Shown: piece after piece, positions 17,798 through 62,720 of the stretch
Layout: each line of letters begins with the position of its first letter
How positions within the stretch are numbered: the stretch's first letter is position 1
IMG/VR virus record: IMGVR_UViG_3300016480_000208
Source: a virus
Lineage: Duplodnaviria > Heunggongvirae > Uroviricota > Caudoviricetes > Demerecviridae
DNA length: 64,000 bases
Direction: 5' to 3' (one strand)
The notes under the pieces: generated by a model
Told to the model about the DNA's origin: nothing
Database searches by the model: none
Seen by the model: only the letters and a program-made list of their open reading frames with translations
Position numbers and translations under genes: made by a program

Positions 17798-18370
17798 TCA
17801 TAGATTACGGTTCCAGTTTAGAAAACCATAGGCACATATCGCAAGTATCGGTAGAAACTACCAACTATGCAACACCCCTATAATACACACCCCAAGCCAC
17901 TATACCCAGCTACTGCTTAACCCATTAGCCATAAGTACAGAAGCCACCGATATACCTCCCAAATATTGAAGCTCTACCGCGGTATAAGGTACGTCATGCT
18001 ATGACATGAACATACCTAAACTTAGGAGTCCAAGGGTTAGGTAGCAAATGTACCCTGCTAAGTAGATCCAGCCGTACCCTTGTAAGTTTCTAGGAACGTA
18101 ATCCCTGGTTGCCTATATCTAGCAGCAGGAACCAAATACTATGTTCTATATGGACTACGTAAGAGACGCGGAGTACTACTACTAAACCACACCCTAAACC
18201 TACCCAATGAAGAAACCCAGCTTATTAAGCCTCTAAATGAGAAACATTATAGCTGCGAAAGGTAGCAAGGTTATATACTGGTGGCCTTCCTATAGTACCT
18301 AGGTAGTGATAAGCTAAACTACTAAGAACTAAAGTTCTTTCATAGTTATTTGTTGCAGAAAGGCAGTCAT
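17797..18370 (-). CDS. TAG-dense multi-pass membrane protein (holin-like), ~191 codons with ~19 in-frame TAG.
   Basis: Manual translation from RBS gggagga + ATG (cat at 18368-70) to TGA at 17797-99 has no TAA or TGA. The TAGs fall inside hydrophobic helices. Confidence 0.5.
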
Positions 18371-18471
18371 ACGTCCTCCCTGATTAGCACGCTGATTTCT
18401 CAGCCAAATTTGTAAACCCCATGTTTACAGCACTATTATAGCTCTTATTACGGCATAAGTCAAGCTATTTT

Positions 18472-25880: not shown

Positions 25881-26087
25881 TTATGCTTTCTTGATGAACT
25901 GAACAATCTCTGCTGGGGTACGTAAGACGGTGCCGTCTTCCCTGATAAGAGCAGGAGCACTGCGAATGCCGTACCGCCTAGCAACCTCAATATCAGTTTC
26001 AATATTGAAATCAATATTCTTGCTGACTAGCTCGTTATAAAGTGCTACGCAGGCTTTGCAATTTTCAGTCTTAAACAATGTGATCAT
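25881..26087 (-). CDS. Glutaredoxin / NrdH-like redoxin.
   Basis: 68 aa with a CKAC active-site motif. Confidence 0.55.
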   Translation of the reverse strand: MITLFKTENCKACVALYNELVSKNIDFNIETDIEVARRYGIRSAPALIREDGTVLRTPAEIVQFIKKA

Positions 26088-26089
26088 TT

Positions 26090-26738
26090 CTACCTCTCAA
26101 GTGACCTTCTGGACTACTAAATACGTGAATTAAAATGCTAAACTAACTCTGAACCTTTTAACTGCTGAGTTATTTTTGGGGCCTGTTGCCATAAAACAAG
26201 AATCACCCCAGAATAAACCCCACTTAGGTCATATAGTGGTGCCTAGTAAAAGTATGCCTAGCCAGCAGCTTCAAAGTACTGAGTAGGTACTGGTAGGGGC
26301 TGCTAACTTAGGTCATCAACTACTGAGAAGGCCCCCTATAGGGATTTATCCTGCAAGTGGTTTATATATGCTACAGAGCTTTTGTCGACACTGTAGTTGT
26401 TTAGTTGGTCTATTTTTACTGGCAACACCCCTTCTGAGGCTCTAATAGATATAAAGTTATTAAGGAATTGTGGCTCATATTCCCAAATTATAACCTGGTT
26501 CTAGTTTAGCTAGGTTAGCACACTAATGGCCTCCTAGCGCTACTAGGCAGGGAACTACTTCTCCCTTAGCTGCTCCTGCTTCTACATAACGGTTTCCGTA
26601 CTTAGATTTTTAAATCCTTCCAGAATCTCCGTCTGGTAGGCTACTACCCAGTAACTAAGTACACCAAGCAGAATAGTACCGGCACGAAGAGCTAGAGTTT
26701 TAGGGTCTTTTATATCCTGTAAAAGAAGCTCTATCATA
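26090..26738 (-). CDS. Hypothetical protein, ~216 codons with ~17 in-frame TAG codons. Its TGA stop overlaps the ATG of the downstream redoxin gene.
   Basis: Manual translation; no TAA or TGA in frame for ~650 nt. Confidence 0.45.
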
Positions 26739-26851
26739 GCTAGGATAGAGCTTTTTGGTGGCTGCTACGACACGGTAGTTTTCTCCGTAGGACGAACTCT
26801 CTCAATACTTAGTATATGATATAGCGCCACCAAAGTAAATAAGTTTTTAGG

Positions 26852-26882
26852 ATAAAGACGAAAGCCTCGCAATGCGAGGCTC
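26852..26882 (-). terminator. Rho-independent terminator.
   Basis: agcctcgc aat gcgaggct + T-run (minus). Confidence 0.65.
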
Positions 26883-26887
26883 TTTAT

Positions 26888-27714
26888 TACTCTAGGGATT
26901 GCAGATAATCTAGGGGATTATCATACTCGCCAAACAGGCCATGCCTGGCCATGACGGCATAAATATATTCTGCCTCTTCATCCTCCAGGTCTACAGATAG
27001 AACCATTTCCTTAACGGTATCAATATGCACCAGCTCACAATTTTCATATACCCCAGCTTGTACAAACTGGGTCCACACACCATAAGCCTCTTCCTTAAGA
27101 GCCCCTATAACTGCACGAGCCCACATAGTGGTAAAGATACGATTATTAATATCCTGCTCTTCTGGCAGCCAAATGGTAGCGTTGGTGCTAAAGATTTGAG
27201 AAATTTCTTCCTTGCTCAGGAAAGGCAGTTGATATTCCTCAAACAGCGCATAACACCAATCCAGTGAAGCCTGAACATGCTTTATGGGCTCCTCACCAGA
27301 ACCTACGGAACCCATGGACATGTTATGGGACATGATAATTGTGTTCCGTACTGGGAGAATGACATCACCACACAACATAGTCAGTGTGTGAGCCGAACTG
27401 GCTCGACCATACGCTTCTGTAATTACAACAGCCTGACTGCGCGCAATAGCCGAAGATAGGTGGGATGCTGTGGTTACGTAGCCACCATCACCATTTAATA
27501 CAATAGAGACTGTATCTTGGCTACCAGCAGCGTACAGAGTATCTAGAAGCGGTACCAAAGGTTGATAATCTTCCAGAGCAGAGGGCATGTATGCTCGGTA
27601 GTTAGTGACACCCACACGTTGTGGGTCTTGACTAGCTGTGATAATTACTGACGGAATAGTCTCAGGGCTTACCATGGCATATTGCTGCTGGTCGTTGTTC
27701 AGTTTCTTCATCAC
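26888..27714 (-). CDS. Hypothetical protein (possible serine-peptidase-like fold).
   Basis: 275-aa ORF followed by a hairpin terminator at 26852-26882. Confidence 0.4.
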
Positions 27715-28378
27715 AGGTTATTCTCCACGAAATTAATAATGTTCTCTTTACCAAGAGATTTATCATTTATAAAGGTAAGGTCAAAACTAACCCCGTTTAG
27801 GGAGTTTTCAGAGATATGACTGTCTTTTATGCTTTCTTCCGGGTTTATGATATTTAGCATAACAAAATCCATAGATTTTAGCAGCCTAAACTCGTCTGGG
27901 AACCTAGTGTCATCTACCACAATAGTACACCCCGCATTTTCTATAATAGACTATTGCATCAAATCTACCCAGAAGGTATCTCTGATTCTATGGCGGAAGA
28001 ACTCTGTGCCCACTTTTTGCAGTAGCTCCCTGCCACTTATCGAGTCTACTATAAGTCCTGATTCTTGAGCCCAGCATATAAACTTATTTGTAGTCTAATC
28101 GACTTTAAGAGCTCCAAGTAGTCCCATAAGGGCATACTCTACGCTTTGCCTAGAGATGCCTTTGGTCTTGACGTAGGTGTTATCCTTGTCCCCGTAAAGA
28201 GCTTTGTGCACTACTTCTGGTTCGTTTACCTGTGATAGAATCTCAGTCAGAAAGATTTTCAGAGGCTAAGCAAAGCTTAAAATAACGGGGTCAGTGTTGG
28301 GGTATTTATGCAGGAACTACTTTGCTACGGCACTTTTACCACAACCTTTACTACCAGATAGGCTAATCTTATTTGCCA
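27711..28378 (-). CDS. Deoxynucleoside monophosphate kinase (T4 gp1-like) with 5 in-frame TAG codons.
   Basis: Manual translation MANKISLSGSKGCGKSAVAK*FLHKY... The P-loop aligns to the T4 dNMP kinase N-terminus. The listed ORF 27711..27920 is only the C-terminal part. Confidence 0.55.
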
Positions 28379-28800
28379 TAATAATGGGCTCCAGTCCTTA
28401 AAGTTACTTGCTTCATGTACTTCATCCTATGTTTCCCAAAATAGACCTACCCGTTAGTGGGGTCGTCTACTTCGTCATTTAACACCAAAGAAGCTATACG
28501 CAGTGACTCTTGCCACGCTGCCTTATTCTTTGGTGTTAGATTACTGTAGGAATCTCTTGTCCATGTAAACTAATGTCTTTTATATACAACCTTGGTTAGG
28601 TTATTTGAGAAATCTGGATGGTCGACTCTATTTAATGCTACAAACGCAGTAGCAATCTTGTCTATTTTTGTTGCACCTCTTGCTTCGTAGTATACAACGC
28701 AAGATAGGGCTTTGAGTTCGGAACGTGCATACTTACACGACCCTGCCTAGTTACCTCCAAAGCTGAGCATAAGCCCAAGCACTAAGATTAAATGTTTCAT
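28367..28800 (-). CDS. Secreted cell-wall hydrolase (SleB / Hydrolase_2-like); candidate endolysin with 3 in-frame TAG codons.
   Basis: Manual translation MKHLILVLGLMLSFGGN*AGSC...VVYYEARGATKIDKIA...NRV... Its stop overlaps the dNMP kinase start. Confidence 0.45.
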
Positions 28801-29001
28801 ATTGGATTACCTCCGGTAAAGGTCTACCCTTACTGGAGGCTCATCATCAATATCCCAGCCTAGATGTTTAGTTTTACGAGAATATTTAGTTCTATCTGAA
28901 AACACTGCACATCGGTTATACTTATGGGCATGCTTTGCTACGAAATTTTTCATCAGTTGACTCCTTAAAGGAAAGGCGGGACTAAGCCCGCCTTATTTAA
29001 A

Positions 29002-30949: not shown

Positions 30950-32071
30950 TTAAAGCCATTTATTTACGGCGTCTGCCATTTCTTCTTCCGAATCCATTCC
31001 AGCGGAAGCTACTCTATAAGTAAGAATCTGGGTTTCTTGCGGGGCAACTTGCAACTTACTAAGGTCTATGAACTTCTCTACCCAGGGAATTGGGTTAGAC
31101 TTAGGTGTGTTAGCCAATGCTTCTAGCTGAATTCCCAGAGGGGCTAAAGCGTTCTTGGTGACGTAAGAGCTATAGCGTTTTAGGATGTCTGCGCTTAGCC
31201 CAACCAATGTAGTGCCTTCTGGCAATACATAATCAGCCCAGTCATTTTCTATTTCCTTAATCTGAGTAAACAACTCAATTACGTACCCAGAATCTACTAC
31301 TTCAGCGTACTCCTCGGGCCACTCTTCCTTCAGAATTGCTAGAATCGCCAAGTCTGCCTGTGCATGTAAGAACTCGTCTTTGATAATGAGAGTAAGTATA
31401 TTGGCGATACCCGGAAGAATATCTTGGTTTGCCAGCCCAAAGTTACATGCAAAAGAGGTATAGAATAGAACCTACTCAAGAGCGTATAGCGCGAAATATG
31501 CTTTTACAAGCAAGATTCGCAGGCAGTACTCTACTTCTTTTAGCTTCGGAAGGCTGTATGTTTCCTTGTTCTGTAGGTAGCTCAATCCGAGCCCATACAG
31601 TTCATCAAACACCGAGGAAACCTAGCTAACCCTACGAGCCACAAAGGGGTTATTGCGAATCTCGTTCTTGATAGCCTAATCAGCGTCTGGCATTACTGAC
31701 TTGATAATATGAGTGTATGAGCGAGAGTGCAAGCTTTCAAAGTATCCAATCTGGATTAGCAGACCCTCTAGTTCTTCATTAGAGCACAAGGCTAGCAGCA
31801 CCATCCCAGGAATTCGACCAGCAAGGGAATCACCCAATACTTGGAACGCCAAATTCTTAATACACAGCTGCTTGTTCTACTCTGAAAGGGTAGGCCACTG
31901 AGCAATATCCTTGTGAAGGGGTATCTCGGTTTCCAACCAAAACTGGGAACGCTGCTTTAGGGCAAAGTCTTCAAGACTTTTATACTTTACTGTGGTATAG
32001 TCTTGGAGTCCCAACTGCTCCCCAAGGAATAGAAAATCTTTTCCGTCTTTTTCTAGGTTTAGTAGATTCAT
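30950..32071 (-). CDS. nrdB: Ribonucleotide reductase small subunit (class Ia NrdB) with 4 or more in-frame TAG codons.
   Basis: C-terminus SNPIPWV...QVAPQE and the iron-site helix YALE*VLFYTSFACNF align to E. coli NrdB (NALEAIRFYVSFACSF). The ORF track splits it into 30950..31351, 31877..32071 and more. Confidence 0.8.
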
Positions 32072-32267: not shown

Positions 32268-34519
32268 CATAGGGTACAGCCTCCACCAGAACAAGATTCT
32301 TCTTTCATAGAAGAAGAAACAGAGCCAGTGTCAGTGTTGCAGTAGTACATGGTCTTCAAGCCATAATGACGTGCCATCTACCAAATACCCAGAAGAACCT
32401 TCATAGGAATCTTTTCGTCTGGGTAGTCAGAGTACCTGTGATACTCGTTGGTACTGATTGCTTGAGTCATCCAACGCTGGACTACCGCCATAGCCTTAAT
32501 ATACTCAAATTGATCAATATCATAGGCTACCTGATAGCTGGAAAGTGAGGTAAACTCTGTAGCTTTAGGGGCTACGGTCACGATAACGTTTCCACCAGAA
32601 CGTTTGGTAGTTACGATAGAGCGGATAGGTTCAACACCATTGGTTGCCCCCAGCAGTACTGAGGAGGACTCTCCAGGCATACAGGCTGTGAAAGTAGAGT
32701 TACGAACACCGTAGAGCTTCATCTCCCTTCGCAGAGCTTCCCAATCTAACTTAGTAGGGGTAGTTACTAGGGAATCTGAGTTTTTGTTAATCAAGTCAAC
32801 TGGTAGTATGCCGTCACTCATTTTAGTACGTTGATACAGGTCACAAGCCCCACGCTCTTTAGCCAGTCGGATAGAAGCCTTAACAATACTATAAAGCATT
32901 TGTTCGCCCTACTCATTGATAAGATCACGAGCTTCCTGCCCTTCATATGACAGACCGTTTTCTGCCAAATATCCCGCTAGGTTAATAAAGCCAATAGCTA
33001 TATTCCTACGCTGCTTAGCCAGCTACTTGATGGCAGGGAAGGGGATGTCCTGCAAATCAATAATAGTGTCAATGAATTTCACTAGGAGGTACATAGATTT
33101 ATCCCAGTCAGTGATTCTGCCGAGCACCGCGCCACCAAGGTTACACAGACTTACTTCCCCGTTTTTCGGGTCTGGATTAGCCTCATACAAGCCTAGAGGG
33201 CTGTTGAAGGGTTTGGTAGGCTGCACTATTTCCATACAGAGATTAGACTGACATACAGGGTCTTTGAAGAGTGACTAGGCATTAGTATTGTAAACATCCT
33301 GCCAATACATTCTACCACTCTCTAGACGACGTTGCATGTAGGTATGTACCAGTTCCGTTGCTGGGATATAGCCAGACTATTTAGCCTCACTGTAAAGTTT
33401 GCGGAATAGCTCCAAATTGTCACTATAGAAAGCTGCGTACATATCCTCATGTCCATACAAGGATACTAGTTTTACGTTTTCACCCTTAGCGTAAAGTTCG
33501 TGTAGGATTCTGTTGTCCTGTAGTGCGTAGTCTAGGAACTCAATACGCTTGTCTTCTGATACCCTTTGAGACTTTAGGTTCAACAAGTCAGCAATTTCTG
33601 GGTCAAAGAAGGGATAAAATACAGTAGCGGAGCCGCCCCGGGCTTGTTGAGTAAGGGACTTAGTAAGCCTATCTACAGCTCTGTAGAAGGGTAACTTTCC
33701 TGTGTGCTAGAAGCTACCATCACGAACAGGGTCTCCAACACTCCTAGTAGTACCAATCCAACCAATACCCGCTCTGGCAGCAGTCATCTTAAAGATAACA
33801 GAGTTTGCCACATCCAGACTGTCGATAGAGTCTCCGGCCTGAATTAGGCAGCAAGATGCGAATCCTCGGTCATGGGTTCTCAAGCCCAGCAGAGGAGGGG
33901 TAGGCACGTTTACTTTTTGTAGTGAAAACTCATCGTACAAGTCTAATAGCTCTTGGATGGTCCAGTCATTACGTCTGCCCGTAGCATCTACCCCAGTAGC
34001 CATACACATACCCATATACATGAATTGTGGGGTTTCTAGGATAGATTGGGTGTTAATGTCCTTTAGCAGATACTTGTCTGCACACTGCTTTAGTCCACCA
34101 TAAGTGAACAACTCGTCCCTTGAATGGTCAATATGGGCTGCAAAGGCGCACATCTCGTCTAGCGAATACATGGTTGAGAAGCGCTGCCATTTGTTAGTAT
34201 TCTCCATATGTTTCACGAAAGCTAACAAATTGGGCGGAGCATATCTACCGTGTACGGCCTTACGCAGCTGAGCTAAGTAGAGCTTTTTAGCAGGTACATC
34301 ATAAGAGTATTCTTCGCTGATTAGGGACTCTGCCGCGTTTATCAGGCTTTTTTGCAGTTGTTCTGAAGTACACTCTTCTGGCAAATTACCAATTGCGATC
34401 CCAGCAATTGCTGCCCAAGAGGCCTCTTCGCCCTAACAGGCCCACTCAGCCCATTGGTTTAACTTGATAGGGTCAAAGGCTTCTTTTGTTCCGTCTCTTT
34501 TTACGATTGTCTTGATCAT
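32268..34519 (-). CDS. nrdA: Ribonucleotide reductase large subunit (class Ia NrdA) with 6 or more in-frame TAG codons.
   Basis: ATP-cone start MIKTIVKRDG, active-site SNLCMEI and the C-terminal tail ...GLKTMYY...CSGGGC. Fragments 32378..32899, 33023..33235, 33377..33586 and 33707..34384 are all co-linear when TAG is translated. Confidence 0.8.
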
Positions 34520-36135: not shown

Positions 36136-36229
36136 ACGATGTATCTCCGAGGCAAAGGTGGATTAGAAGTTAGTTTTCTCTCTCACCTATATAGTATAGC
36201 AAAAATGAAGGTATGCTGCAACTATTATT

Positions 36230-37400
36230 TTAAATCCGGTAGGGCATCTACTAGTTGCTCTATGGAATCAAAATACTTCATAGGGAATCTCTTATCCCTA
36301 TACACTTTAGCTCTAGTTTCCTAGTGCCGGTATCCAGTTCCACCAGATAAAGCTAGGTCTATAGCAATAGGTGTGCGCTTACCGCTCATAAGTCTTTGTA
36401 TGCGTCCAATTAGCTGGGCTATTAATGACTAGTTATCACTACTAGAAGTGAGTATTAGACAAGACAGTATACTTAGTGATAGACCTTCCGAGAATATAGA
36501 AGTAGTGGATACTACGCCCTAGTACTTACCTTCTTGTACTTGTTCCAATATGGTAGCCCTGTTTTTCTCCTCGGATATAATCAATGCCCACTTCTTTCCA
36601 GTTACCTCTTCTAGCACACTGGCAAGTGTTCTGGAGAAATCCACACGGTCTGAGGTGATAAGTGGTATGTGGCCACTAAAATGGGCCTAAGCCTACAGGC
36701 AAACTATCTCCTTTAGATAAACATCCTGGCTATATAGGTCTGTAACCTAGTTGGCCCAACCACCCGGCTGTGCTGTTAGGTTAAACTTCTACTTGGAGTA
36801 GGTTCTGAGAACTATAGGAATCATCACGTTCTCTTCCTTCGGAATTACAACGTTCTTGCTGAACCACCCGGGGAATAAAACGTGCTTACCGTCTTTACGG
36901 ATTAAGGTACCACTAAGGCCTAACTTAATACCGGCAAAACTATGCACTAGTACTTTTTCAAAGGTAGATGCTGGGCAATGGTGCACTTCATCCATAATTA
37001 GTAACCCAAATTCCCTACATAAGGATTGGGCATGCTTTTGTACGGTTTGTATGTTACCAATTACTATAGGAGTGGAGATATCTACCTGGCCACCGCCGAT
37101 TATAGCTGGTGTAAAGCCAAAATGTTTTCTAACCTCTTGCACCCACATGTCTCGAATATCAGTAGTCGTGGTGACTACCAGCGTCTTTAATTGCAATTTG
37201 TGGGCTATAGCTAGCTAAGTAATAGTTTTACCAAACCCAGGTATTGCGTTAATAATCCCGTTTAGCTAAAATCCACCTATCTTAGGGTAACTAAGGAACT
37301 ACCCCATAGCCATACTCTGAGACTCCCTCAATACAAATAGGGGGTCTGGGATTTTCTACGAAACCTTAGAAGTTCTATCTACAAACTCAAACTGACAACC
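36230..37400 (-). CDS. SF2 helicase (DExH) with in-frame TAG codons; boundaries approximate and it may extend toward 37915.
   Basis: Walker A IPGFGKT just upstream of fragment 36789..37196, which carries DEVHH and SGT motifs. Several TAG-only interruptions. Confidence 0.4.
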
Positions 37401-38146
37401 CTAACCTGTTACTCGTTTGCACATGCCAATTATGGTATCTATGTGCCCAGAAGGGAAGGAGTATGCCTGTTTTGAGGTAGAGATAGTCTTAATCTGTAGC
37501 TAGATTGGCTGAAACTTCTGATTAGGGCTCTGCTTGGGCAGTATAAACGTAAGAAGCTCTACCTACTGCTGATGCTCTTCAGGCGTAAGCCGCATATATA
37601 CTTGGTCTGATATAACCACCTTTCGTGGCTAACTTAAAGCTTCTTTCTACGTGAACAATTCTACGTGTCTCCAAAATCTAAAGGCATATAACACATTGCC
37701 CCTAGCTTAACTAGGTAAACATATAAGTAGCCCCTAGAAGCAACTACACGCTCCAGGCCTCCTTCTGGGAGTTTGTACCACATTTCTACCTTACTATCCT
37801 CTAGCTGGTTTGCCTTTATAATTTTAGCCGGCACTACGTCATAGTAGGTACTTTTTACCCACTTAAATACTCTGCCTTGGTTATTTATAAAGTTTAGTGT
37901 TCCACTATTCGCCAACTCCTACAAAGTATTGCATATCTTGTGCAATGGGTACAGCCTATATGATGTCTTGTTGTTTACCTACAACCAGAGACGCCTTTCG
38001 GTATAGGTCTAACCGGGGGCGTTCTAGTCGTCTAGTAAGTATTTCTCCATAGCTGAGGTTATGTACGTTTTTGGCCCATCCTTTTCTATGCTTACATACT
38101 ACCTTAAAGGAAATAGGGGCAAATTTGCCCCTATAAAGTTCTTCAA

Positions 38147-40587
38147 GCTCATAGTGCAGCTACGGTTGGGTACTGTTTCTGCAACTTACCACAAGAGTAG
38201 TCGAAGGAACCACCGTCCTCGGAGTCAGAATCAACGCCCATAGGCGCCCCTGGGATCATTAGTCCACGGTCTTTCTGTATATTACGTACAACAAGCTCCA
38301 AGTATTCTTCTACGCAGGACTCATGAACTTCTGCTACTACTGAGTCATGTACCATACAAAGGATTTGAGCATCCAGCTTACGGGCAGTAATCTCTGCTTC
38401 TGCGTCAATAGCCCCCAGCAGCAGGATATCAGAAGATGCCCCTTGGATGATAGCGTTAAACCCAGAACGCAGCTCTTCGCCGATAACACCACGGTCACTA
38501 GAGGTGATGTTACGCAGACGGCGCTTACGACCAAAGTGGCTATAAATGAAGCCGTGGTTCAGAATCTGGTTGTGGCATTCGGTGATCCACTGCTTCAAAC
38601 GAGGGAATCGCTTGAAGTACACAGCGATGTATTCTTCTGCCTTTTCCTTGGTGCAAGGAACGTATGGCTCACCTGTTTTTAGGCTCTGCTCAAGTAGCGC
38701 TTCGTTAACCGCTTGAGCTACTTTTGCTGGGCCAGAACCATACAAGATACCAAAGGTAATCGCTTTAGCTGCTTGACGCAAGGCTGGGAATAGCTTTTTA
38801 ACCTCTTGAGGCTCGCAAGACAGCCCGAATACCATGTGTGCAATGTTACTGTGGAAGTCAGGATACTTAGCAGGGTCTCTAGTCATATTGATAAAGACTT
38901 GTTGCAGGCCTTTATCACCAGACAGGGCTGCTGCTACCCAAACTTCCGCAGTGGTCATATCCACCGCCACAATCCTGTAACCCTTTCTGGCTTTGATACA
39001 CCCTTTTACTAGTGCATCATCACGAGGAAGCTGTTGCAGGTTTAGGGTACCACTGGAGGACAGACGACCAGAGGTTGTGGTGTGCAAGTGGAAGCCAGTA
39101 CGTAGACGACCATCGAGGTCTACGTGATCCAGTGCTTTCTCGATGTAGGTGTTTAGCAGCTTAGAGAACTTACGGTACTCTAGGATTGCTTTAGCAATAC
39201 TGGAATCTTGGTCTGATGCCAGTTTTTCTAGAGCTTCCGCGTTGGTAGAATCCTGCTTGGTATCAGTCATGATACCTGTAGGTGTCAACCCTTCGTAATC
39301 AAACAGCAGTGTGCGCAGTTGAACAGGAGAGGCTGGGTTAAACGCGGAACCTTTATCAAGTTCGTACCTGTTTACGCTGTCGAACTGGTAGATTCGTTCT
39401 TGTGCTTCACGAATTTTTTCTGATACTACGGCACTTGCTTCTTTAAGCCGAGAAACGCTGAAAGGTACACCACGAGACTCGATACGCTGCAAGAAGCGGT
39501 TGCCCGGAATCAAGATGTTGGTGTAAAGAGAGTTCAGTTGTGGATTTTTACGAATAAGCGGCAAAAACTTATTGTGCAGACGCAGGGTAGCGTCAGGGTC
39601 TTTTGCTGCGTATACCTTAAGGATGTCCCAAGGGATAAGGTCGTAAGTGAAATCCTCTTTCTTGACATTATGCAGGGTGCAGTATGACTTCTTAAATTCT
39701 TCCAGCTCTAAGTCGTAGTCACCCAAGTCAGTGTAGTCGATGGCCAAAGACTTCAAACCATGCGTACCTGTACGTTCATCAAGTGTATAATGCTGTAACA
39801 TGGTATCGTGCATACGGTTTTCATCATATGCCTTGTTAAAGTCGATACCAAAATGGTACTCAAACCAATGTTGGTCAAACTTCAAGTTATGGAATACAAT
39901 GTCCGCCGGAGAATCAAAGATTTGTTGCACCATACCAATCAGTTTAGTATCAAACAAATCAGCGTGGATATACCTCCCATAACCAGGGGTGTCACAGAAG
40001 CACAAACCTAGTGGGTAGCCTTTACGGGCGTACAAAGCTGTGGTTTCCGAGTCCATACCAACCGCAGAACTTTTACCAGATAGGACGTTTTGCACAACTT
40101 GACTAAGGTAGCTTTCCGCTTCTTTGTAGTCCGTGATACCTTCCCAGCTGCCTTCTGCTTTTGCTTGCCCAGAAACCAACAACTGACGAATCTTGGAAAT
40201 TGTTTTTTCCATTACCGGCTTGTTCTCTGGCCGGAAAGAGAGCACAGCCGGAGAAATAGACGCAATAAACCTTGCATTAGCCCAGGCATCTTTGGGAGGG
40301 GCCATAAGCCCAGTGTAATCTGTTACTGAGGTAACTCTACTATACTCTTTCAAAGCCTCAGAACCTACTAGAATAGTGAAATCGTACTCCATAGGGTTAA
40401 ACTGAATGTCGATGTTCTTCTTGGTCGGCTTCTTGATAGAAGGGTCAGAACATAGATGGTAAACATCTACTGGGATAGTCCCATTGAAGTAAATGTTAGA
40501 ATAGTTCTGTCGGTTAGGGCTTTTATCTACTACGGCAATTTTAGGTACTTTGGTCATATACTCAGGTCTCCTTAAACCTCTGTCCAA
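38147..40587 (-). CDS. pol: Family A DNA polymerase with 3'-5' exonuclease domain (T5-type).
   Basis: 812-aa ORF with a PolA palm (RRxxKxxNFGxxYG-like RQAAKAITFGILYG) and an N-terminal exonuclease. No in-frame TAG; ends TGA. Confidence 0.85.
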
Positions 40588-40589
40588 TC

Positions 40590-41435
40590 AATCTCATCAA
40601 TAAACTTCTTCAAGTAGTCTACCTCGGGCTTACTAAGTCCTCCAGGGTCTCCACCTTGTGGTAGTATATGGTTCTATACATATACTCTGAAGTGCTTAGA
40701 TAGCACTTTTGACAAGTTCTGAGCAGCAGCATTACCTGCGTCGTCATTATCCATCAATATCACTACTTTTTTCGTATCTGCGGCCACTAAGGGTAGGCAC
40801 TTTTGGTCAACTGTTCTGTGGGTAACAGTTGAGGCACCAAATACCTAAGTCACGTTAGATACCCCTTTGTCCCTAAGGTTGGCAACATCAAATATGCCCT
40901 CCACTAGAATAGTTACCCCATTACTCTGCACAGCAGGATAGAAGGGTATTTTTGCACCATCTGGATAGGCCAAATACTTTGGCTTTAAGTCGCTATACAT
41001 AGAACGCTAGATCACCGCACATAGGTTCCCCGTTACTAAGTCTGTAATCGGGAAACACAGTCGCCCCTCCCAGTTAGAATGAGTGAACGCCTCTAGTTTC
41101 TTGTAGGTATCCTACGATATGTCTCTGTAGGTCTACGCAAAAGGCTCAATAGACGGCGGCAAGGTTATGCCCACTGAGAAAATGTTAAGCTCCTGTAATT
41201 TTCTCTTGAATTGTCGTATCTTTGGGGAAACTTTTGGTAGTTCCACACCCAAGTACTCATGAATCGACTTACCTTTGAAGCCACACGCATAGCAGTGATA
41301 TACCCCTAGTTCTTTGTCAATGTACATTGATGGTGAAGAGTCTTCGTGTTCTGGATTTAAGCACAGCACCAGATAGTCCTTACCTTTTTCCTTAAAAGGG
41401 ATGCCGCGCTATTCTAATAGCTCTTTTACAATCAT
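40590..41435 (-). CDS. DnaG-like primase (zinc-binding plus TOPRIM) with in-frame TAG codons.
   Basis: MIVKELLE*RGIPF...CYACGFKG zinc ribbon. The listed ORF 41133..41369 ends on TAG and the frame continues. Confidence 0.5.
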
Positions 41436-41507
41436 ATTACCTCACTTTCCAATATTATACACCTAAAAAGACCAGCGATCAAGATTTATAACAAAAAAGG
41501 AGATGAT

Positions 41508-42867
41508 TTTACTCATCTCCTTGTTCTTCTTGTGGCACTTTGACTATGCTTTGTGGGATAATTTTCATGTAGTCCCACGACATATGGGTCACGAAGTTGA
41601 TACCTGCTGGGAGGTTACGCAACTTAGCTACTGTAAGTGTCAGAACTGAGCCAGATTTATTAATGGTGAACTACATATCCACCTAATCTAACAAACCTTT
41701 CTACATACGAGTGGCCCCGTTTTCATCTACTTGATACGGTGAAATAACTAGAACTTTTTGCTTCCTGGCTATTGTGTTCTTAAGCATAGTTGCTAACTGT
41801 GTTTGAACCTTCCAATCCAGCCTATCAAGAGTTTTTACGCCCTCAAGTATAAGCTGGTTTACATAGTCAACAATTACCGTGGTTACTAGCCCCGGGTATT
41901 TTGCCTTTAATGTCGTTAGTACTAGATCAATGGTGGAGATTTTTAGATTCCTATCATCAATTACTACTATCGGTAAAATCTGTTTTAGGTGTTGCTTGAA
42001 ATACGTTTCGTGGCTTTGGAATAGGTCCCTCGTAGGAGGCTCTTCTAGTGCTTTTAGTTGATCCATTAAGTAATCAAAACCACCTTCGTACTGTGCGGCT
42101 TGAGAAAGCTACAACTGTACTTGTTCAAAGTGATTCATAGTACCATTACGTAACGCGGAGAATCTAACACCACTAGCTGTCTACCAAAATCTCTGGTATG
42201 TTTCCTCGGCGGTCATTTCGATAGTGCAGTACGGGGCTATTTTACCAACCATCCAGTGGTGGGCACAGATGTTAATACAAAGTGCTGATTTACCAACTCC
42301 TCGGTATCCACCTAGAAGAATAAGCTCTTCTTCTTTTCCTCCCAGAAACTCCATATCCCAGCGCTCGGATAACCCAAGGGTTGAGAACTAGGTTTGGGTT
42401 TCTTCCTCCGCACGAAACATTGAAATTTCGTTACCGTAGAATACTTTGTCAGAACTGTCTATCTCCTCTTCCACTAGCATCTAGATGGCCTAGAGTTCCT
42501 CTACTATCTCCTGTGGCCCTAACAAGGGTAAGTTGTCTGCAAACTTGTCTAACTTCTCGATAGCGATATGCTGGATGTGCTCGGCTTCTAGTTGCTCCAA
42601 CTATAGGGAGATTGGTACGTCCGGTAGCTCCACCTTTTCAAGTGCTAGTACCTAATGTAGGACGGAAGAGTTTCTGGAATTAAACAACTTTAACTCTTCA
42701 AAAGAGGGGACTCTGGCATGTGCTTCGTAGAAGTTATTTACTGATCGATATACGCTGGAGAATAGGCCCGAGAAGTACTACGATTTCAGCTTTTCCATCT
42801 AAGCTAGCTTTTGCTCCTGACTATCAGACTATAGCAAAAGCCCTAGAGTTGTGCTTTGTAGTGACAT
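41508..42867 (-). CDS. DnaB-family replicative helicase with ~11 in-frame TAG codons.
   Basis: Walker A GGYRGVGKSAL. The listed 41701..42066 fragment ends on TAG, and reading through reaches TAA at 41508. Confidence 0.5.
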
Positions 42868-42886
42868 CTAAGCTCCTTGAGTAATA

Positions 42887-42920
42887 AAACAAAACAAAAA
42901 AGGAGGCACTTAGGCCTCCT
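42887..42920 (-). terminator. Rho-independent terminator after gene 42947..43722.
   Basis: aggaggc actta gcctcct plus a T-run (minus strand). Confidence 0.7.
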
Positions 42921-56316: not shown

Positions 56317-56319
56317 TCA

Positions 56320-56348
56320 AGGGAGCCTCAGGGCTCCCTTTGTTTTTG
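56320..56348 (+). terminator. Rho-independent terminator after the OMP-like gene.
   Basis: agggagcc tcag ggctccct followed by tttgttttt. Confidence 0.8.
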
Positions 56349-56358
56349 GAGAGAATAT

Positions 56359-58527
56359 ATGCCTATTTATGTTGGCAACACTGGGGCCTAGAAAATATTA
56401 GGTCTAACAAAAACCTCCCAGGATTAGTGGAACGTAAAGCCAGATACTATATTCCACTCCTCCCTGCCGTATGTAGAAGTAATCGAGCATTATATGCCTG
56501 TTGCGTATAAACACTAGGCTGCACCTTACGACTATCTAGTAAAAGATTATAACCCAGACTACTGGGGGACAGTAACAGTCTACGACTGGTTTAATTACTA
56601 CAACTACGCACCAATAAATGGTAATAAGTATCACAACATTCACTACTATGAGTAGGTATTAACTGATTAGGTGAAATCCTTCTTAAGATACACCAACAAT
56701 TAGTACATACTAATATACCACTTGAGCAATGGCGCCCAAGTAATGATGCCTTAGCATAATTCAGACATAAAGACCACGCACAAAGGGGATTTGCAACATC
56801 TGGACTAGACCGAAGGCAACATATAGACACCAAACTAGGGTTATAGAGCTAGAATGGATCAACTCAAGGCTATTGATAGCCCTTGGGACTTAACGGGGTA
56901 TCAGGACGTATACTGGTTCCAGTACGCTTTTGTGCAGCCTTCCGCAAATGGTGTAGTAACAACACCTAATGGAATAGTGAGTACCCTTGATATTACTGTT
57001 ACTGGTATTACTATTCTTCAGTTAGTGGGGTTAAACCTTGTATAGGCAACCCCAGGAGCAAACCCGCTATCTACCTAGCCCTTGAACCCTTAGCAGCAAG
57101 GGGCTGTTCTTATTTCTAGGGATTCCTTGAATATATAGGGAGTAGAATATAAAAACAAAAAATTCCTACAGGTGCTAACTAACCCGATTACCACAACAGG
57201 CAGTTAGGCGGTAAACGTATCTACTTAGAACTTATAGGTTACAAATCTGTACGCCTCTTCTCCCAGCTTCCAATGGGGGACTAGACTAGACTATCTAGCG
57301 AAATATCGTGACGGGGGCTTCATGAACGTAGGTATAACCTAGGGTTCTTCACAGTACACCTTAATAAATTATCCTCTGGGGCAGGAGTGGTACTCTAATG
57401 TCCCTGCTGTAGGTGCTTGGGGCGTCCTGCCAGGCAATAACATGACAACATATAGTGGGGCTGTACCAGGGTACTGGCCTTATAGTTTTTATGGTGGTGC
57501 GTCAGTTGGGGTTAATTCTTGGAAAGGTAGTATTAGGAAACCCAAAGAGCTTATTTAGCAGTCTTGGTAGCACACCTTTACTAGACTTAGCTAGACCGAT
57601 ACCTGGACTCTAGGTCAGTACTTTAACCAAGGGCTAGCAAATCGCCTTGGTTCTGAGGTTCAATACTTCTAGGGCGTGTAGATTACCTCTCTAAGTAAGT
57701 AGTAGGGTATTGCGTTCGATAGTTCACACCCTAGCATCAATTAGGGTGCCCAATATAAGATGTTCTCGCCAGATTCGCAAATGGTTGCAAGAATTGGTAA
57801 AACATACGCAGCAGCTATCCCACAAGATACCTTTAGCGGGTCACCCTACTATTCTGGGACACGGAATTTCCCATAGTACGAAGATGATATTCTTGTATCA
57901 ATAATTGATTTGGGATAGGAAGAGCAGTAGACCAACAACTTCTTCCTAACATCCTACATTCAAGACCAGGATTTAATTAACCTGTCCTATGCTAATACCT
58001 TGAGGTTTATTGTATCTGGGGGCGTTATCTCATACCAAGAGAATAACTTTAACCCAAGCTACAACATACCTAAGTAGTGCTTATTCTATAGATAGCCGTA
58101 TGATGGGGTTGGTGGGCAATGGTACAAGTCTGTGCAAGCCAATAATGGTTCCCCTGTATGGTTTGGTTATCCAGATTGGTACTACAGCAACTACGACTTA
58201 CCTACAGATATGATAGGATTCCCTTTCCAATCAAACCATATACGTAATAGGTAGGTTTCTGTGGTAAGCTTGCCAGTAGGTGCACAATATATCTTGAAAG
58301 AAGAGCTAAACCCACAGTCAAGCTACGCGTGGAACGGGCCAGACCAAGTTAGGGGGGTACGAAGCTCCATCTAGTATCTTCGTAGAATCTCTTAGTCCAG
58401 AATTGAGGTGCGCCTCAACGTACATAAGACACAGTAGCACAGTGTTTTCTCTAATGGTGGGTATCTTGGTTTCGGTACTTTTGGGTCTAGCGTAGTTCAA
58501 AACTTCTAGATATGCCCTATACTGTAA
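56359..58527 (+). CDS. Long TAG-rich gene: 723 codons with 36 in-frame TAG and no TAA or TGA until the terminal TAA. The Y/N/G/W/T-rich protein may be structural or receptor-binding.
   Basis: Codon-by-codon check against coordinates. The listed ORF 56854..57045 is an in-frame fragment. ATG at 56359. Confidence 0.6.
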
Positions 58528-61264: not shown

Positions 61265-61293
61265 TTGCTATCAAGCTGACAACTTGATATAAT
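61265..61293 (+). promoter_or_regulatory. Promoter of the same family (TTGCTA-17-tgaTATAAT) inside the tRNA island.
   Basis: Near-identical to the 62389 module. Confidence 0.65.
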
Positions 61294-61475: not shown

Positions 61476-61490
61476 TTTAAGAGAGTTAAA

Positions 61491-62388: not shown

Positions 62389-62417
62389 TTGCTATCAAGG
62401 TATTAACTTGATATAAT
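62389..62417 (+). promoter_or_regulatory. Strong promoter upstream of the suppressor tRNA (TTGCTA, 17-bp spacer, extended tgaTATAAT).
   Basis: ttgcta 62389-94 and tataat 62412-17. The same module is at 61265-93 (before tRNA-Lys UUU) and 59527-55. Confidence 0.7.
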
Positions 62418-62446
62418 AATCATATGAAATCGAGAGTGGTTTTGAT

Positions 62447-62521
62447 GGGGCATTAGCTCAATGGGAGAGCGGCGGACTCTAAATTCGCTGGTTAACGGTT
62501 CGAGTCCGTTATGCTCCACCA
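62447..62521 (+). tRNA. Amber-suppressor tRNA, anticodon CUA, on a tRNA-Ala-like body (G3:U70, A73). Predicted to decode TAG as alanine.
   Basis: Full cloverleaf: acceptor ggggcat/atgctcc+A+cca with the G3:U70 wobble; D-arm tagctcaatgggagagc (E. coli tRNA-Ala-like); anticodon arm gcgga-ctCTAaa-ttcgc; variable tggtt; T-arm aacgg-ttcgagt-ccgtt. A promoter lies 30 nt upstream. Confidence 0.85.
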
Positions 62522-62533: not shown

Positions 62534-62609
62534 GGGGCTATAGTTTACATGGGTAAAACCGCTGCCTTGCAAGCAGCAGAATTCGGTTCAATTCCGAATA
62601 GCTCCACCA
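62534..62609 (+). tRNA. tRNA-Ala (UGC).
   Basis: Acceptor ggggcta/tagctcc (G3:U70), A73; anticodon gctgc-ctTGCaa-gcagc; T-arm ttcgg-ttcaatt-ccgaa. Confidence 0.8.
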
Positions 62610-62714: not shown

Positions 62715-62720
62715 AATAAT

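What the first reader, a model, noticed from the sequence alone, without database searches (positions are those of the whole stretch)
62389..62521. Phage-encoded amber suppressor tRNA (anticodon CUA) with alanine identity elements, driven by its own consensus promoter
A complete 75-nt cloverleaf with anticodon loop cuCUAaa lies 30 nt downstream of a TTGCTA-17-tgaTATAAT promoter. Its acceptor stem is GGGGCAU/AUGCUCC, giving the G3:U70 wobble pair and discriminator A73. Those are the established, anticodon-independent determinants for alanyl-tRNA synthetase. Its D-arm (UAGCUCAAUGGGAGAGC) closely resembles E. coli tRNA-Ala. I infer TAG = Ala. This is consistent with several observations. TAG positions align to G, A, S and G in E. 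coli NrdB and T4 dNMP kinase. TAGs sit inside predicted TM helices (GVV***YSASLT*SI*NIVFG; IGIAII*VL*LALAATKF). TAGs also sit in Ala-rich coiled coils (QLAA*A*ESLKAQGKL*QAQ). Phages with reassigned stop codons mostly read TAG as Gln, so an alanine-reading amber suppressor would be unusual. The native tRNA-Ala(UGC) sits immediately downstream at 62534.
Basis: partly seen in the sequence, partly recalled or inferred. Interest (0 to 1): 0.97.

Follow-up and report, generated by a model that had tools for sequence, protein, structure and literature searches.

The report
Phage tRNA reading TAG as alanine
This T5-like Aeromonas phage carries its own transfer RNA that most likely makes the stop codon TAG mean alanine, a meaning not reported before for a phage (the known cases read TAG as glutamine), and it can be tested directly because close relatives of the phage grow in culture.

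Summary
Window 62447-62521 (+) is a canonical 75-nt tRNA with anticodon CUA, G3:U70, A73 and an encoded CCA. It has the best Rfam tRNA score in the 15-tRNA cluster and sits behind a conserved TTGCTA-17-TGnTATAAT promoter.

The window is an Aeromonas phage of genus Shenzhenvirus (Demerecviridae). At least 184 in-frame TAGs interrupt conserved genes, including NrdA/B, DnaB-like helicase, primase, SF2 helicase, holin and endolysin.

Two independent lines point to alanine:
- **tRNA identity.** G3:U70 occurs only in this tRNA and in tRNA-Ala(UGC). It survives five compensatory stem changes between alleles.
- **Protein columns.** A Codetta-like test on 40 TAG columns from three protein families against distant standard-code homologs puts Ala first (Ser -33 log units, Gln lower still).

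Ala is two mutations from TAG yet is the commonest partner residue in relatives.

Recoding of this genus was already flagged as "table 15" (TAG=Gln) in a supplementary table (Cook et al. 2024). The alanine meaning appears unreported. Public protein databases translate these TAGs as Q.

Similar Ala-type CUA tRNAs occur in many TAG-recoded metagenomic phage contigs.

Verdict: a real feature and a new variant of a known kind. No biochemical proof yet.

The parts
62389..62394 (+). -35 hexamer TTGCTA of the promoter in front of the suppressor tRNA
   Evidence: The motif is conserved upstream of the orthologous tRNA in AhP_Mru1, Akh-2, TS3, AhSzw-1 and L155.
62409..62417 (+). Extended -10 element, TGaTATAAT, 17-nt spacer from the -35
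62418..62446 (+). 29-nt stretch between the -10 and the mature 5' end. It presumably holds the transcription start and a short 5' leader removed by RNase P (inferred).
   Evidence: The processing step is inferred from general tRNA biology.
62447..62521 (+). tRNA with anticodon CUA (amber suppressor), 75 nt, with a canonical 7/4/5/5 cloverleaf and an encoded CCA
   Evidence: ARAGORN. Rfam tRNA 67.7 bits. 21 of 21 pairs are kept in both alleles, with 5 compensatory double changes.
62449..62449 (+). G3 of the G3:U70 wobble pair, the major alanine identity determinant
62515..62515 (+). U70, the partner of G3
62479..62481 (+). Anticodon CTA (reads UAG) in loop CUCUAAA. A36-A37-A38 follow the anticodon.
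62518..62521 (+). Discriminator A73 and the encoded CCA end
62534..62609 (+). tRNA-Ala(UGC), 12 nt downstream. It shares acceptor pairs 1-5 (GGGGC/GCUCC) and A73 with the suppressor.
61265..61293 (+). Sister copy of the same promoter motif (TTGCTATCAAG-N7-AACTTGATATAAT), in front of tRNA-Lys(UUU)
41512..42909 (-). DnaB-like replicative helicase gene, with 14 TAGs in the stop-free frame and 13 inside the protein
   Evidence: Column test.
36228..37706 (-). SF2 (T5 D10-like) helicase gene, with 16 TAGs in the frame, including one just after the Walker A motif (GKTITxLA)
40575..41441 (-). DNA primase gene with 6 in-frame TAGs
26087..26917 (-). T-type holin gene (phrog_860, PF11031) with 16 in-frame TAGs. 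Three of them lie inside the conserved C-terminal motif.
28372..28806 (-). Endolysin-like gene with 3 in-frame TAGs
30953..32071 (-). NrdB gene with 4 in-frame TAGs. The orthologs in Akh-2 and TS3 have none.
32270..34519 (-). NrdA gene with 7 in-frame TAGs. The orthologs in Akh-2 and TS3 have none.
17801..18424 (-). Membrane-protein gene with 17 in-frame TAGs (82 per 1000 codons)
56317..58524 (+). 736-codon frame with 36 in-frame TAGs and no family match

Best explanation
The locus is a phage-encoded amber suppressor tRNA of alanine identity. It is the adaptor for a TAG=Ala genetic code in this Aeromonas Shenzhenvirus phage.

**Proposed mechanism**
1. Host sigma-70 RNA polymerase transcribes the tRNA from a conserved T5-type extended -10 promoter. 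It may be co-transcribed with the adjacent tRNA-Ala(UGC). This step is inferred from the promoter motif and its conservation.
2. The precursor is trimmed; CCA is already encoded. Inferred.
3. Host alanyl-tRNA synthetase ignores the anticodon and recognises G3:U70 with A73, G2:C71, G4:C69 and G20. It charges the tRNA with alanine. The determinants are shown in the sequence; the charging itself is inferred from established AlaRS biochemistry.
4. Ala-tRNA(CUA) reads UAG in competition with release factor 1. At least 184 in-frame TAG codons in replication, nucleotide-metabolism, membrane and lysis genes are therefore translated as alanine. That TAG is a sense codon is shown. That Ala is the best-fitting residue is shown computationally.
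5. Genes terminate at TAA or TGA.

Because TAG-bearing genes cannot be completed without the phage tRNA, the code may also gate expression, for example of the holin. This last point is speculative.
For: **The tRNA is real.**. All 21 stem pairs are standard in both known alleles, and five pairs carry compensatory double changes (5:68, 6:67, 7:66, 50:64, 51:63). G1-G4, U70 and A73 never change.

**G3:U70 is specific.** Among 15 window tRNAs and 31 AhSzw-1 tRNAs it occurs only in the CUA tRNA and in tRNA-Ala(UGC). Other phage CUA tRNAs with the same D-arm lack it.

**The promoter is conserved** in five relatives.

**TAG is a sense codon.**
- Conserved genes carry in-frame TAG but no in-frame TAA or TGA.
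- 136 TAGs are conserved with AhSzw-1.
- The holin's conserved C-terminal motif runs through three TAGs.

**The residue is alanine.**
- An empirical likelihood from partner residues puts Ala first against Akh-2, TS3 and three standard-code T5-like outgroups. Against Akh-2: Ser -13.5, Gln -23.6.
- Where all three outgroups agree at a TAG site, the residue is A at 5 of 7 sites.
- In the profile-column test, Ala comes first in each of three families separately and in all 40 columns combined (Ser -33.1).
- Controls: true S, E, K, G, T, V and L columns are never called A, and Q columns are called A in 2 of 500 resamples.
- GCN is two mutations away from TAG, so the excess of Ala partners cannot come from mutational proximity (reasoning from the code table).
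- If TAG were Gln, Q content would be 7-8 sd above that of homologs.
Against: - **No experiment.** Aminoacylation and the inserted residue are inferred.
- **Conflicting columns.** Holin X68 aligns with an invariant Glu. Helicase X283 aligns with R/K and X389 with E. These are either real substitutions in this lineage or local misalignment.
- **Cys not excluded by columns.** The column test cannot separate Ala from Cys: Cys columns are called A in 435 of 500 resamples. Cys is excluded only by tRNA identity rules.
- **Weak body similarity.** The tRNA body is only weakly closest to tRNA-Ala (51 of 75) and does not retrieve E. coli tRNA-Ala by BLAST.
- **Possible mischarging.** CUA anticodons can invite partial mischarging by GlnRS or LysRS in E. 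coli (established knowledge), which was not tested.
- **Release factor 1.** How one frame with 36 TAGs escapes RF1 is unexplained. No +4 context bias was found.
- **Compositional tests** are non-discriminating.
Confidence: 0.85

Rival explanations
1. TAG is read as glutamine (translation table 15), as in crAss-like and Lak phages. This is what automatic pipelines and public protein databases assume for these genomes.
For: - Cook et al. 2024 list AhSzq-1, AhSzw-1 and Akh-2 as table 15.
- Database proteins P0001-P0007 carry Q at every TAG site.
- Q is among the partner residues in close relatives. It is one transition away from TAG.
Against: - Table 15 is the only TAG-sense option in those tools. 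The Q residues are a translation artefact: the DNA has TAG, and the loci are reported as 'translates_to_query: no'.
- Gln is 23-29 log units worse than Ala against relatives, and worse than Ala by more than the 67 log units of the eighth-ranked residue in the combined profile columns.
- Q content would be 7-8 sd too high.
- The tRNA has A73, a strong G1:C72 pair and G3:U70. It lacks the G73, weak 1:72 pair and G3:C70 set used by GlnRS (sequence plus established identity rules).
Confidence: 0.03
2. Decoding is ambiguous. The tRNA is mostly alanylated but partly mischarged (Lys or Gln because of U35 in the CUA anticodon), or host near-cognate tRNAs and RF1 compete. TAG sites would then carry a mixture of residues plus truncation.
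For: - TAG sits mostly at variable, tolerant sites: the NrdA sites align with E, S, T, G, I, T, A.
- K, E, Q and S are frequent partners.
- RF1 competition is unaddressed.
- Several E. coli amber suppressors are known to be mischarged (established knowledge).
Against: - K, E, Q and S are the one-step mutational neighbours of TAG, so they are expected whatever the meaning.
- TAG also sits at strongly conserved Ala columns: DnaB 253 and 399 at 77% Ala, and helicase Walker A at A/G.
- Engineered E. coli tRNA-Ala(CUA) is reported to insert Ala faithfully (recalled from the literature, not checked here).
- Frames with 16-36 TAGs need near-complete read-through.
Confidence: 0.08
3. TAG is read as another small residue (Ser, Gly or Cys) rather than Ala.
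For: - Ser is second-best in the column tests, and several TAG columns are A/S mixtures.
- Cys columns are indistinguishable from Ala columns in the control.
Against: - Ser is 33 log units worse.
- The tRNA has a 5-nt variable loop, not the long arm SerRS needs.
- A73, rather than U73, and anticodon CUA exclude GlyRS and CysRS recognition (sequence plus established identity rules).
- A/S columns are what a neutral GCG to TCG to TAG path would predict.
Confidence: 0.02
4. The tRNA is a pyrrolysine tRNA (the ARAGORN label), or the TAG-interrupted genes are pseudogenes or assembly errors.
For: - ARAGORN prints 'tRNA-Pyl'.
- GenBank records annotate the genes as fragments.
Against: - ARAGORN gives that label to every CTA anticodon.
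- This tRNA has G18G19, a 5-nt variable loop and a normal T-loop, unlike tRNA-Pyl (tRNA-Pyl features from established knowledge).
- Only TAG interrupts the frames, never TAA or TGA.
- The interruptions are conserved in 8 or more independent genomes and contigs, including essential replication genes of phages that grow in culture.
Confidence: 0.01

Closest known systems
TAG-to-Gln recoding (genetic code 15) in crAss-like, Lak and other gut phages, with phage Sup-CTA tRNAs (Borges et al., preprint 10.1101/2021.08.26.457843; Peters et al. 2022, PMC9523058; Cook et al. 2024, PMC11210395)
   Same: - A phage of a standard-code host turns the TAG stop codon into a sense codon.
- It carries its own CUA tRNA and relies on a host synthetase.
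- TAA and TGA remain stops.
- Lysis genes (holin, endolysin) are recoded.
- Standard annotation fragments the genes.
   Different: - The amino acid is Ala, not Gln. Borges et al. state they observe only TAG to Gln and TGA to Trp in such phages.
- Charging uses the anticodon-blind AlaRS/G3:U70 route, not GlnRS reading the anticodon.
- Replication genes (helicases, primase) are heavily recoded here, whereas in crAss-like and Agate phages they are in standard code.
- The host is a cultivable gammaproteobacterium, and the phage group is T5-like and isolated in culture.
UAG=Ala in mitochondria of Hydrodictyaceae green algae (Zihala and Elias 2019, PMC6821328)
   Same: The same codon-to-amino-acid reassignment, inferred there too from conserved-column analysis and a matching tRNA.
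   Different: That case is an organellar genome with its own release factor changes and codon disappearance. Here the agent is a virus that imposes the code transiently on a cell whose own code and RF1 are standard.
Engineered E. coli amber suppressors of alanine identity, and transplantation of G3:U70 into other tRNAs (Hou and Schimmel 1988; McClain and Foss 1988; Normanly et al. 1990).
   Same: A CUA-anticodon tRNA with G3:U70 and A73 is expected to be charged by AlaRS and to insert Ala at UAG in a gammaproteobacterium. This is the mechanistic precedent.
   Different: Those are laboratory constructs used at single amber sites. This one is natural, promoter-driven, conserved, and serves hundreds of codons.
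CUG=Ala in the yeast Pachysolen tannophilus and AGG=Ala in green-algal mitochondria (the latter cited in Shulgina and Eddy 2021, PMC8629427)
   Same: Reassignment towards Ala, made easy because AlaRS does not read the anticodon.
   Different: Those are sense-to-sense changes in cellular or organellar genomes, not stop-to-sense changes in a virus.
tRNA gene clusters of T5-like phages (Demerecviridae)
   Same: The suppressor lies in the typical large early-region tRNA cluster, with T5-type strong promoters.
   Different: In the regions compared, the T5-like outgroups have no in-frame TAG in the orthologous genes. Whether they carry a CUA tRNA was not checked.

Membership tests
Canonical elongator tRNA | Cloverleaf with 7/4/5/5-bp stems and the conserved tertiary nucleotides (U8, A14, G18G19, U33, T-loop) | tested here: met
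   ARAGORN. Rfam RF00005 67.7 bits against a gathering score of 29. 21 of 21 pairs with 5 compensatory changes. Nucleotides read.
Amber suppressor tRNA | Anticodon CUA | tested here: met
Amber suppressor tRNA | In-frame UAG codons in genes that must be translated | tested here: met
   184 in-frame TAGs in 16,302 codons of conserved frames. They occur in essential replication genes.
Amber suppressor tRNA | Measured read-through of UAG | not testable with these tools
   Needs a reporter assay or proteomics.
Alanine-identity tRNA (AlaRS substrate) | G3:U70 wobble pair in the acceptor stem | tested here: met
   It is invariant across alleles while pairs 5-7 covary. It is otherwise present only in tRNA-Ala(UGC).
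Alanine-identity tRNA (AlaRS substrate) | Supporting elements A73, G2:C71, G4:C69 and G20 | tested here: met
   Read from the sequence. The list of elements comes from established knowledge.
Alanine-identity tRNA (AlaRS substrate) | Aminoacylation with alanine by AlaRS | not testable with these tools
   Needs in vitro charging with Aeromonas or E. coli AlaRS.
Alanine-identity tRNA (AlaRS substrate) | The decoded codon occupies Ala positions in conserved proteins | tested here: met
   Ala is top in all pairwise and profile tests.
Genetic code 15 (TAG=Gln) | TAG is a sense codon; TAA and TGA are stops | tested here: met
Genetic code 15 (TAG=Gln) | TAG aligns with Gln in conserved proteins | tested here: not met
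   Gln is 23-29 log units below Ala against relatives and below the eight best residues in the profile columns. The Q residues in database proteins are a translation artefact.
tRNA-Pyl | Atypical structure: 3-nt variable loop, small D-loop without G18G19, 6-bp anticodon stem | tested here: not met
   It has a 5-nt variable loop, G18G19 and a standard T-loop. The feature list comes from established knowledge.
tRNA-Pyl | Accompanying pylS/pylBCD genes | not tested
   No systematic search was made; none was noticed among the proteins annotated.
Phage recoding as a late/lysis-gene switch (Borges model) | The recoded codon is concentrated in lysis and structural genes | tested here: inconclusive
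   Holin has 16 TAGs in 217 aa and the endolysin-like gene has 3. Structural genes of Akh-2 are fragmented in the annotation. They lie outside the window.
Phage recoding as a late/lysis-gene switch (Borges model) | Replication genes kept in the standard code | tested here: not met
   The DnaB-like gene, primase and SF2 helicase carry 6-16 TAGs each, while DNA polymerase has none.

The most novel reading that the evidence does not exclude
UAG=Ala is a distinct phage genetic code that recurs in several lineages, not a peculiarity of one genus. Phages exploit the anticodon-blindness of host AlaRS by carrying CUA tRNAs with G3:U70.

This occurs in cultured T5-like Aeromonas phages and in many unrelated, strongly TAG-recoded uncultivated phages. 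At least 38 distinct such tRNAs were found in capped scans. In those contigs TAG occupies invariant Ala positions such as PhoH DE-A-QN and terminase DEC-A-F.

Current pipelines and databases systematically mistranslate all of these proteins with Gln.
Probability: 0.65. Interest if true: 0.88.

Novelty: new variant of a known kind. Interest (0 to 1): 0.8.

Why it matters
**It changes the current picture.** The survey read here states that phages differing from their host's code are seen to reassign only TAG to Gln and TGA to Trp. A TAG=Ala phage code would add a third reassignment, with a different logic: it captures an anticodon-blind synthetase through a single base pair.

**It can be tested.** The carriers include isolated, lytic phages of Aeromonas hydrophila, a standard-code gammaproteobacterium. 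This contrasts with most recoded phages, which are known only from metagenomes. Open questions therefore become reachable in the laboratory:
- how a phage overrides release factor 1;
- when the code switch happens;
- what recoding is for.

**It has practical consequences.**
- GenBank records of this genus fragment their genes.
- Table-15 re-annotation, and the large protein databases, put Gln where Ala is most likely inserted. That is about 11 residues per 1000 in this window.
- Such errors affect structure prediction, phylogeny and the use of these phages in aquaculture therapy.
- A natural, efficient Ala amber suppressor that has evolved alongside its promoter is also of interest for synthetic biology.

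Tried and rejected
- **BLAST of the tRNA against E. coli genomes.** It gave only weak Arg/Asn hits. It was uninformative, and it removed the D-arm argument.
- **MFE folding of the tRNA alone.** It gives a non-cloverleaf fold, as is common for tRNAs, so it was not used.
- **Gene-wise composition tests.** Ala is depleted in TAG-rich genes, but so are D, E and K. The tests argue only against Gln.
- **+4 context of TAG.** No bias (p=0.22), so there is no sign of selection for a suppression context.
- **The search for related loci with the DNA polymerase in IMG/VR.** It returned only AhSzw-1 itself.
- **Homolog search with the holin.** It returned only four close recoded relatives. T5-like holins were fetched through tblastn instead.
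- **Pooled TAG-partner test across metagenomic lineages.** It was ambiguous (Ala best, Gln -8.4), probably because of mixed lineages and one-step CAG neighbours. Conserved-motif checks were used instead.
- **Literature.** No report of TAG=Ala in phages was found in the held library. This is not proof that none exists elsewhere.
- **Considered and rejected:** tRNA-Pyl, pseudogenes or assembly errors, and Ser, Gly or Cys identity. See the rival explanations.
Full report
**1. What the window is**

The tRNA region and the nrdAB region match Aeromonas phages. Identity is about 95-97% to AhP_Mru1, about 91% to AhSzw-1 and AhSzq-1, and about 70% to Akh-2 and vB_AdhS_TS3 in nrdAB (about 88% over the conserved tRNA genes). 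All belong to genus Shenzhenvirus, family Demerecviridae, which is T5-like. The DNA polymerase is 99.6% identical to that of AhP_Mru1. It is at most 58% identical to those of classical T5-like phages. These are isolated lytic phages of A. hydrophila and A. dhakensis.

**2. The observation**

- ARAGORN finds 15 tRNAs at 60.2-63.1 kb, including a CTA-anticodon tRNA at 62447-62521.
- Rfam's tRNA model scores it at 67.7 bits, the best of the cluster.
- The sequence is GGGGCAUUAGCUCAAUGGGAGAGCGGCGGACUCUAAAUUCGCUGGUUAACGGUUCGAGUCCGUUAUGCUCCACCA.
- It has a 7-bp acceptor stem with G3:U70, discriminator A73 and an encoded CCA.
- It also has G18G19(G20), a 5-nt variable loop and a standard T-loop.
- The promoter TTGCTA-17-TGaTATAAT lies at 62389-62417.
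- The same 29-nt motif precedes tRNA-Lys(UUU) at 61265. A near-identical promoter lies upstream of the orthologous tRNA in Mru1, Akh-2, TS3, AhSzw-1 and a mis-binned metagenomic copy.
- The relatives annotate this tRNA as 'suppressor', 'Sup-CTA' or 'Pyl(cta)'.

**3. The tRNA is under selection, and G3:U70 is specifically kept**

The window's allele differs from the single allele shared by Mru1, AhSzw-1, Akh-2 and TS3 at 13 positions. Eleven of these lie in stems.
- All 21 pairs remain standard in both alleles.
- Five pairs carry double compensatory changes.
- G1-G4, the G3:U70 wobble and A73 are untouched.

Among 15 window tRNAs and 31 AhSzw-1 tRNAs, G3:U70 occurs only in this tRNA and in tRNA-Ala(UGC). 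Within each genome the two genes are neighbours and share acceptor pairs 1-5: C5:G68 in the window, A5:U68 in the others. This suggests common descent, or exchange of the pair as a unit (inference).

Four other phage CUA tRNAs have the same D-arm without G3:U70.

G3:U70 is the major, anticodon-independent determinant for AlaRS, helped by A73, G2:C71, G4:C69 and G20 (established knowledge). All of these are present.

Other identities are excluded by the sequence combined with established identity rules:
- Ser: no long variable arm.
- Gly and Cys: no U73.
- Gln: no G73 with a weak 1:72 pair.
- Pyl: the tRNA is structurally canonical.

**4. TAG is a sense codon here**

With TAA and TGA as the only stops, long conserved frames appear that contain TAG but no other stop:

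| Gene | In-frame TAGs |
|---|---|
| NrdA | 7 |
| NrdB | 4 |
| PhoH | 2 |
| SF2 helicase | 16 |
| Primase | 6 |
| DnaB-like helicase | 14 |
| dNMP kinase | 4 |
| T-type holin | 16 |
| Endolysin-like | 3 |
| Membrane protein (17801-18424) | 17 |
| 736-codon frame (56317-58524) | 36 |

- In a curated set of conserved frames there are 184 TAGs in 16,302 codons. That is 11.3 per 1000, and 14% of GCN plus TAG.
- 136 TAGs are conserved with AhSzw-1.
- Metagenomic relatives have TAG at the same sites.
- The holin's conserved C-terminal motif continues through three TAGs.
- The distribution is mosaic. DNA polymerase (812 aa) and the 981-aa origin-binding protein have none.
- NrdA and NrdB are TAG-free in Akh-2 and TS3.

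**5. Which amino acid**

(a) Pairwise test.
- For each window residue type I tabulated the residues aligned in a second genome, with a local-identity filter. I then asked which type best explains the partners of TAG.
- Ala wins against Akh-2 in both directions (n=46 and n=69). The runner-up is Ser at -13.5 and -15.0. Gln is at -23.6 and -27.6.
- Ala also wins against TS3 and against three standard-code outgroups: phiR2-01, ValDsh2 and D442.

(b) Outgroup agreement. At sites where all three outgroups agree, the residue is Ala at 5 of 7. These are DnaB-like 103, 243 and 413, and helicase 164 and 338. The exceptions are one Arg site and one Gly site.

(c) Codetta-like profile test.

| Family | Distant homologs | TAG columns | Runner-up (log units below Ala) |
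|---|---|---|---|
| DnaB-like | 70 | 13 | Ser, -9.9 |
| SF2 helicase | 112 | 12 | Ile, -6.5 |
| T-type holin | 6 | 15 | Ser, -7.1 |
| All three | | 40 | Ser, -33.1 |

- In the combined test the next residues are Val at -46 and Glu at -59. Gln falls below the eight best.
- On the 25 DnaB-like and helicase columns, mean log-probability per column was -1.97 for Ala, -3.29 for Ser and -4.92 for Gln. TAG columns fit Ala as well as the GCN-encoded Ala columns of the same proteins do (-1.97 against -2.53).
- Resampling controls never call true S, E, K, G, T, V or L columns 'A'. Q columns are called 'A' in 2 of 500.
- Cys columns are called 'A' in 435 of 500, so Cys is excluded only by tRNA identity.
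- Examples: DnaB 253 and 399 are 77% Ala. The helicase Walker A position (GKTITxLA) is 57% Ala and 42% Gly.

(d) Mutational argument. The one-step neighbours of TAG are Gln, Lys, Glu, Ser, Leu, Trp and Tyr codons. GCN is two steps away. The K, E, Q and S partners are therefore expected from mutation alone. The Ala excess is not, and must reflect functional equivalence. A/S-mixed columns (DnaB 229, 389, 395) fit a neutral GCG to TCG to TAG path (inference).

(e) Conflicts. Holin X68 aligns with an invariant Glu. Helicase X283 aligns with R/K and X389 with Glu.

**6. What was already known**

- Cook et al. 2024 list AhSzq-1, AhSzw-1 and Akh-2 in Supplementary Table S1 as 'translation table 15'. 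They remark that recoding appears sporadically in Demerecviridae. The existence of TAG recoding in this genus is therefore not new.
- Table 15 is simply the only TAG-sense table in those tools. No amino-acid inference was made there.
- The Akh-2 paper does not mention suppression.
- Borges et al. write that they observe only TAG to Gln and TGA to Trp in phages whose code differs from the host's.
- I found no report of TAG=Ala in a phage in the held library.
- UAG=Ala is documented in Hydrodictyaceae mitochondria.
- The big protein collection holds full-length DnaB-like and helicase proteins of these phages with Q at every TAG. The underlying DNA has TAG, so these are mistranslations if TAG=Ala.

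**7. Beyond this genus (partly followed)**

I scanned for GGGG...CTCTAAA...CTCCACCA. This pattern forces G1-G4, U70, A73, CCA and a CUA loop. It hit 6 IMG/VR stretches, 55 GTDB genome stretches and at least 120 metagenomic stretches, the last scan being capped.

- ARAGORN recognises true CUA tRNAs in 71 of 186 loci. There are 40 distinct sequences. Of these, 38 have a full 7-bp stem whose pairs 5-7 covary.
- In the 32 such loci of 5 kb or more, treating TAG as sense raises coverage by stop-free frames of at least 100 aa by a median of 0.35. Treating TGA as sense raises it by 0.095.
- In 74 pattern-matched loci without a CUA tRNA, both gains are 0.016.
- In one lineage a PhoH-like protein with 22 TAGs has TAG at the Ala of DE-A-QN and of PL-A-YMRGR.
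- In another, the large terminase has TAG at the Ala of T4 gp17's 'IEDCAF'.
- A pooled partner test across these mixed lineages was ambiguous: Ala best, Gln -8.4.

TAG=Ala is therefore probably not confined to Shenzhenvirus. This needs proper per-lineage analysis.

**8. Mechanism and open points**

- **Shown.** The gene, its conserved promoter, the alanine determinants, TAG as a sense codon, and Ala as the best-fitting residue.
- **Inferred.** Transcription by host RNA polymerase early in infection, processing, charging by host AlaRS, and competition with RF1.
- **Unexplained.**
  - How frames with 16-36 TAGs escape RF1. No +4 context bias was found, and no RF-related gene was searched for systematically.
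  - Why TAG density is so gene-specific: polymerase 0, neighbouring helicase 33 per 1000.
  - Whether recoding gates the holin and endolysin-like genes.

**9. Verdict**

It is a new variant of a known kind: phage stop-codon recoding by a suppressor tRNA, but with alanine and an anticodon-blind synthetase. It is directly testable in a cultured phage-host pair.

Noticed in passing
Loci L020, L021, L024, L036-L150, L189 (IMG/VR, JGI/ENA metagenomes, GTDB MAG contigs): At least 38 distinct CUA tRNAs with a 7-bp acceptor stem, G3:U70 and A73 occur in uncultivated phage-like contigs. Some are tandem pairs (L045, L058, L079, L094, L097). Most host contigs are strongly TAG-recoded. TAG sits at invariant Ala positions of PhoH (DE-A-QN) and terminase (DEC-A-F).
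   Followed up: partly
Proteins P0001-P0007 and P0030-P0037; loci L017-L019: Public protein collections hold full-length proteins of Shenzhenvirus-like phages translated with table 15. Every TAG appears as Q, and the DNA has TAG. If TAG=Ala, these entries are systematically wrong.
   Followed up: yes
L001 5140-5213 (AhP_Mru1); homologous spots at L002 4387-4459, L003 5103-5175 and L013 7816-7889: AhP_Mru1 has a tRNA with anticodon UCA, which ARAGORN labels 'SeC' and the record annotates as a second suppressor. The orthologs in Akh-2, TS3 and AhSzw-1 have abnormal anticodon loops (tcgg, ca). It lies just beyond the window's end. In-frame TGA was not examined.
   Followed up: no
window 60460-60585 and 62617-62715: Two stretches between tRNA genes end in a T-arm-like GGTTCGA..., an acceptor-like 3' strand and CCA, with a complementary 5' strand. 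They are about 100-125 nt long. Neither ARAGORN (even with intron search) nor Rfam calls them. Judging from the spacing of neighbouring tRNA genes, their presence seems to vary among relatives: no gap between Tyr and Trp in TS3, and none between Ala and Pro in Mru1.
   Followed up: partly
window 61980-62290: A stretch of about 310 nt between tRNA-Arg and tRNA-His has no Rfam match, and its only long stop-free frame is broken by 7 TAGs. A stretch of similar size separates the same two tRNA genes in relatives. Its nature is unknown.
   Followed up: no
window 38152-40587 (-), 48233-51175 (-) versus 36228-37706 (-), 40575-42909 (-): TAG use is sharply gene-specific within one replication module. 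DNA polymerase (812 aa) and the 981-aa origin-binding protein have 0 TAG. The adjacent helicase, primase and DnaB-like genes have 6-16. NrdA and NrdB have 7 and 4 TAGs here but none in Akh-2 and TS3, so TAG codons are still being gained lineage by lineage.
   Followed up: partly
window 56317-58524 (+): A 736-codon frame with 36 in-frame TAGs (49 per 1000) has no PHROG match and is only 26% identical to its Akh-2 counterpart. It lies between the anaerobic RNR genes and endonuclease V. Its function is unknown.
   Followed up: partly
window 60035-60063, 61265-61293, 62389-62417: Three extended -10 promoters lie in the tRNA cluster. Two share the 29-nt motif TTGCTATCAAG-N7-AACTTGATATAAT. The motif is conserved at the same places in relatives, which suggests the cluster is transcribed in several units.
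   Followed up: partly
L024 6825-7514 (IMG/VR 3300002494_000025, 135 kb, 29% GC): In an unrelated AT-rich phage contig, a tRNA-Ala(UGC), an Ala-type CUA tRNA and a tmRNA gene (tag ANEYIPLAA) lie side by side. They sit next to a 1431-codon frame with 24 TAGs.
   Followed up: no
L155 and L172 (contigs binned in a Phocaeicola MAG, GTDB): A Shenzhenvirus-type tRNA cluster (Arg-His-CUA-Ala-Pro-Met-Leu...), carrying the AhSzw-1-type acceptor stem (GGGGATG/CATCTCC) on its CUA tRNA, sits in contigs binned into a Bacteroidota MAG. This is probably a binning artefact.
   Followed up: no
window 61484-61814 (+): A small frame between tRNA-Glu and tRNA-Arg (MYNNGKVAEITAMLHYAEAGYEIFLPQG...) contains several TAGs. 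It may be a small nuclease or homing-endonuclease-like gene inserted in the tRNA cluster.
   Followed up: no
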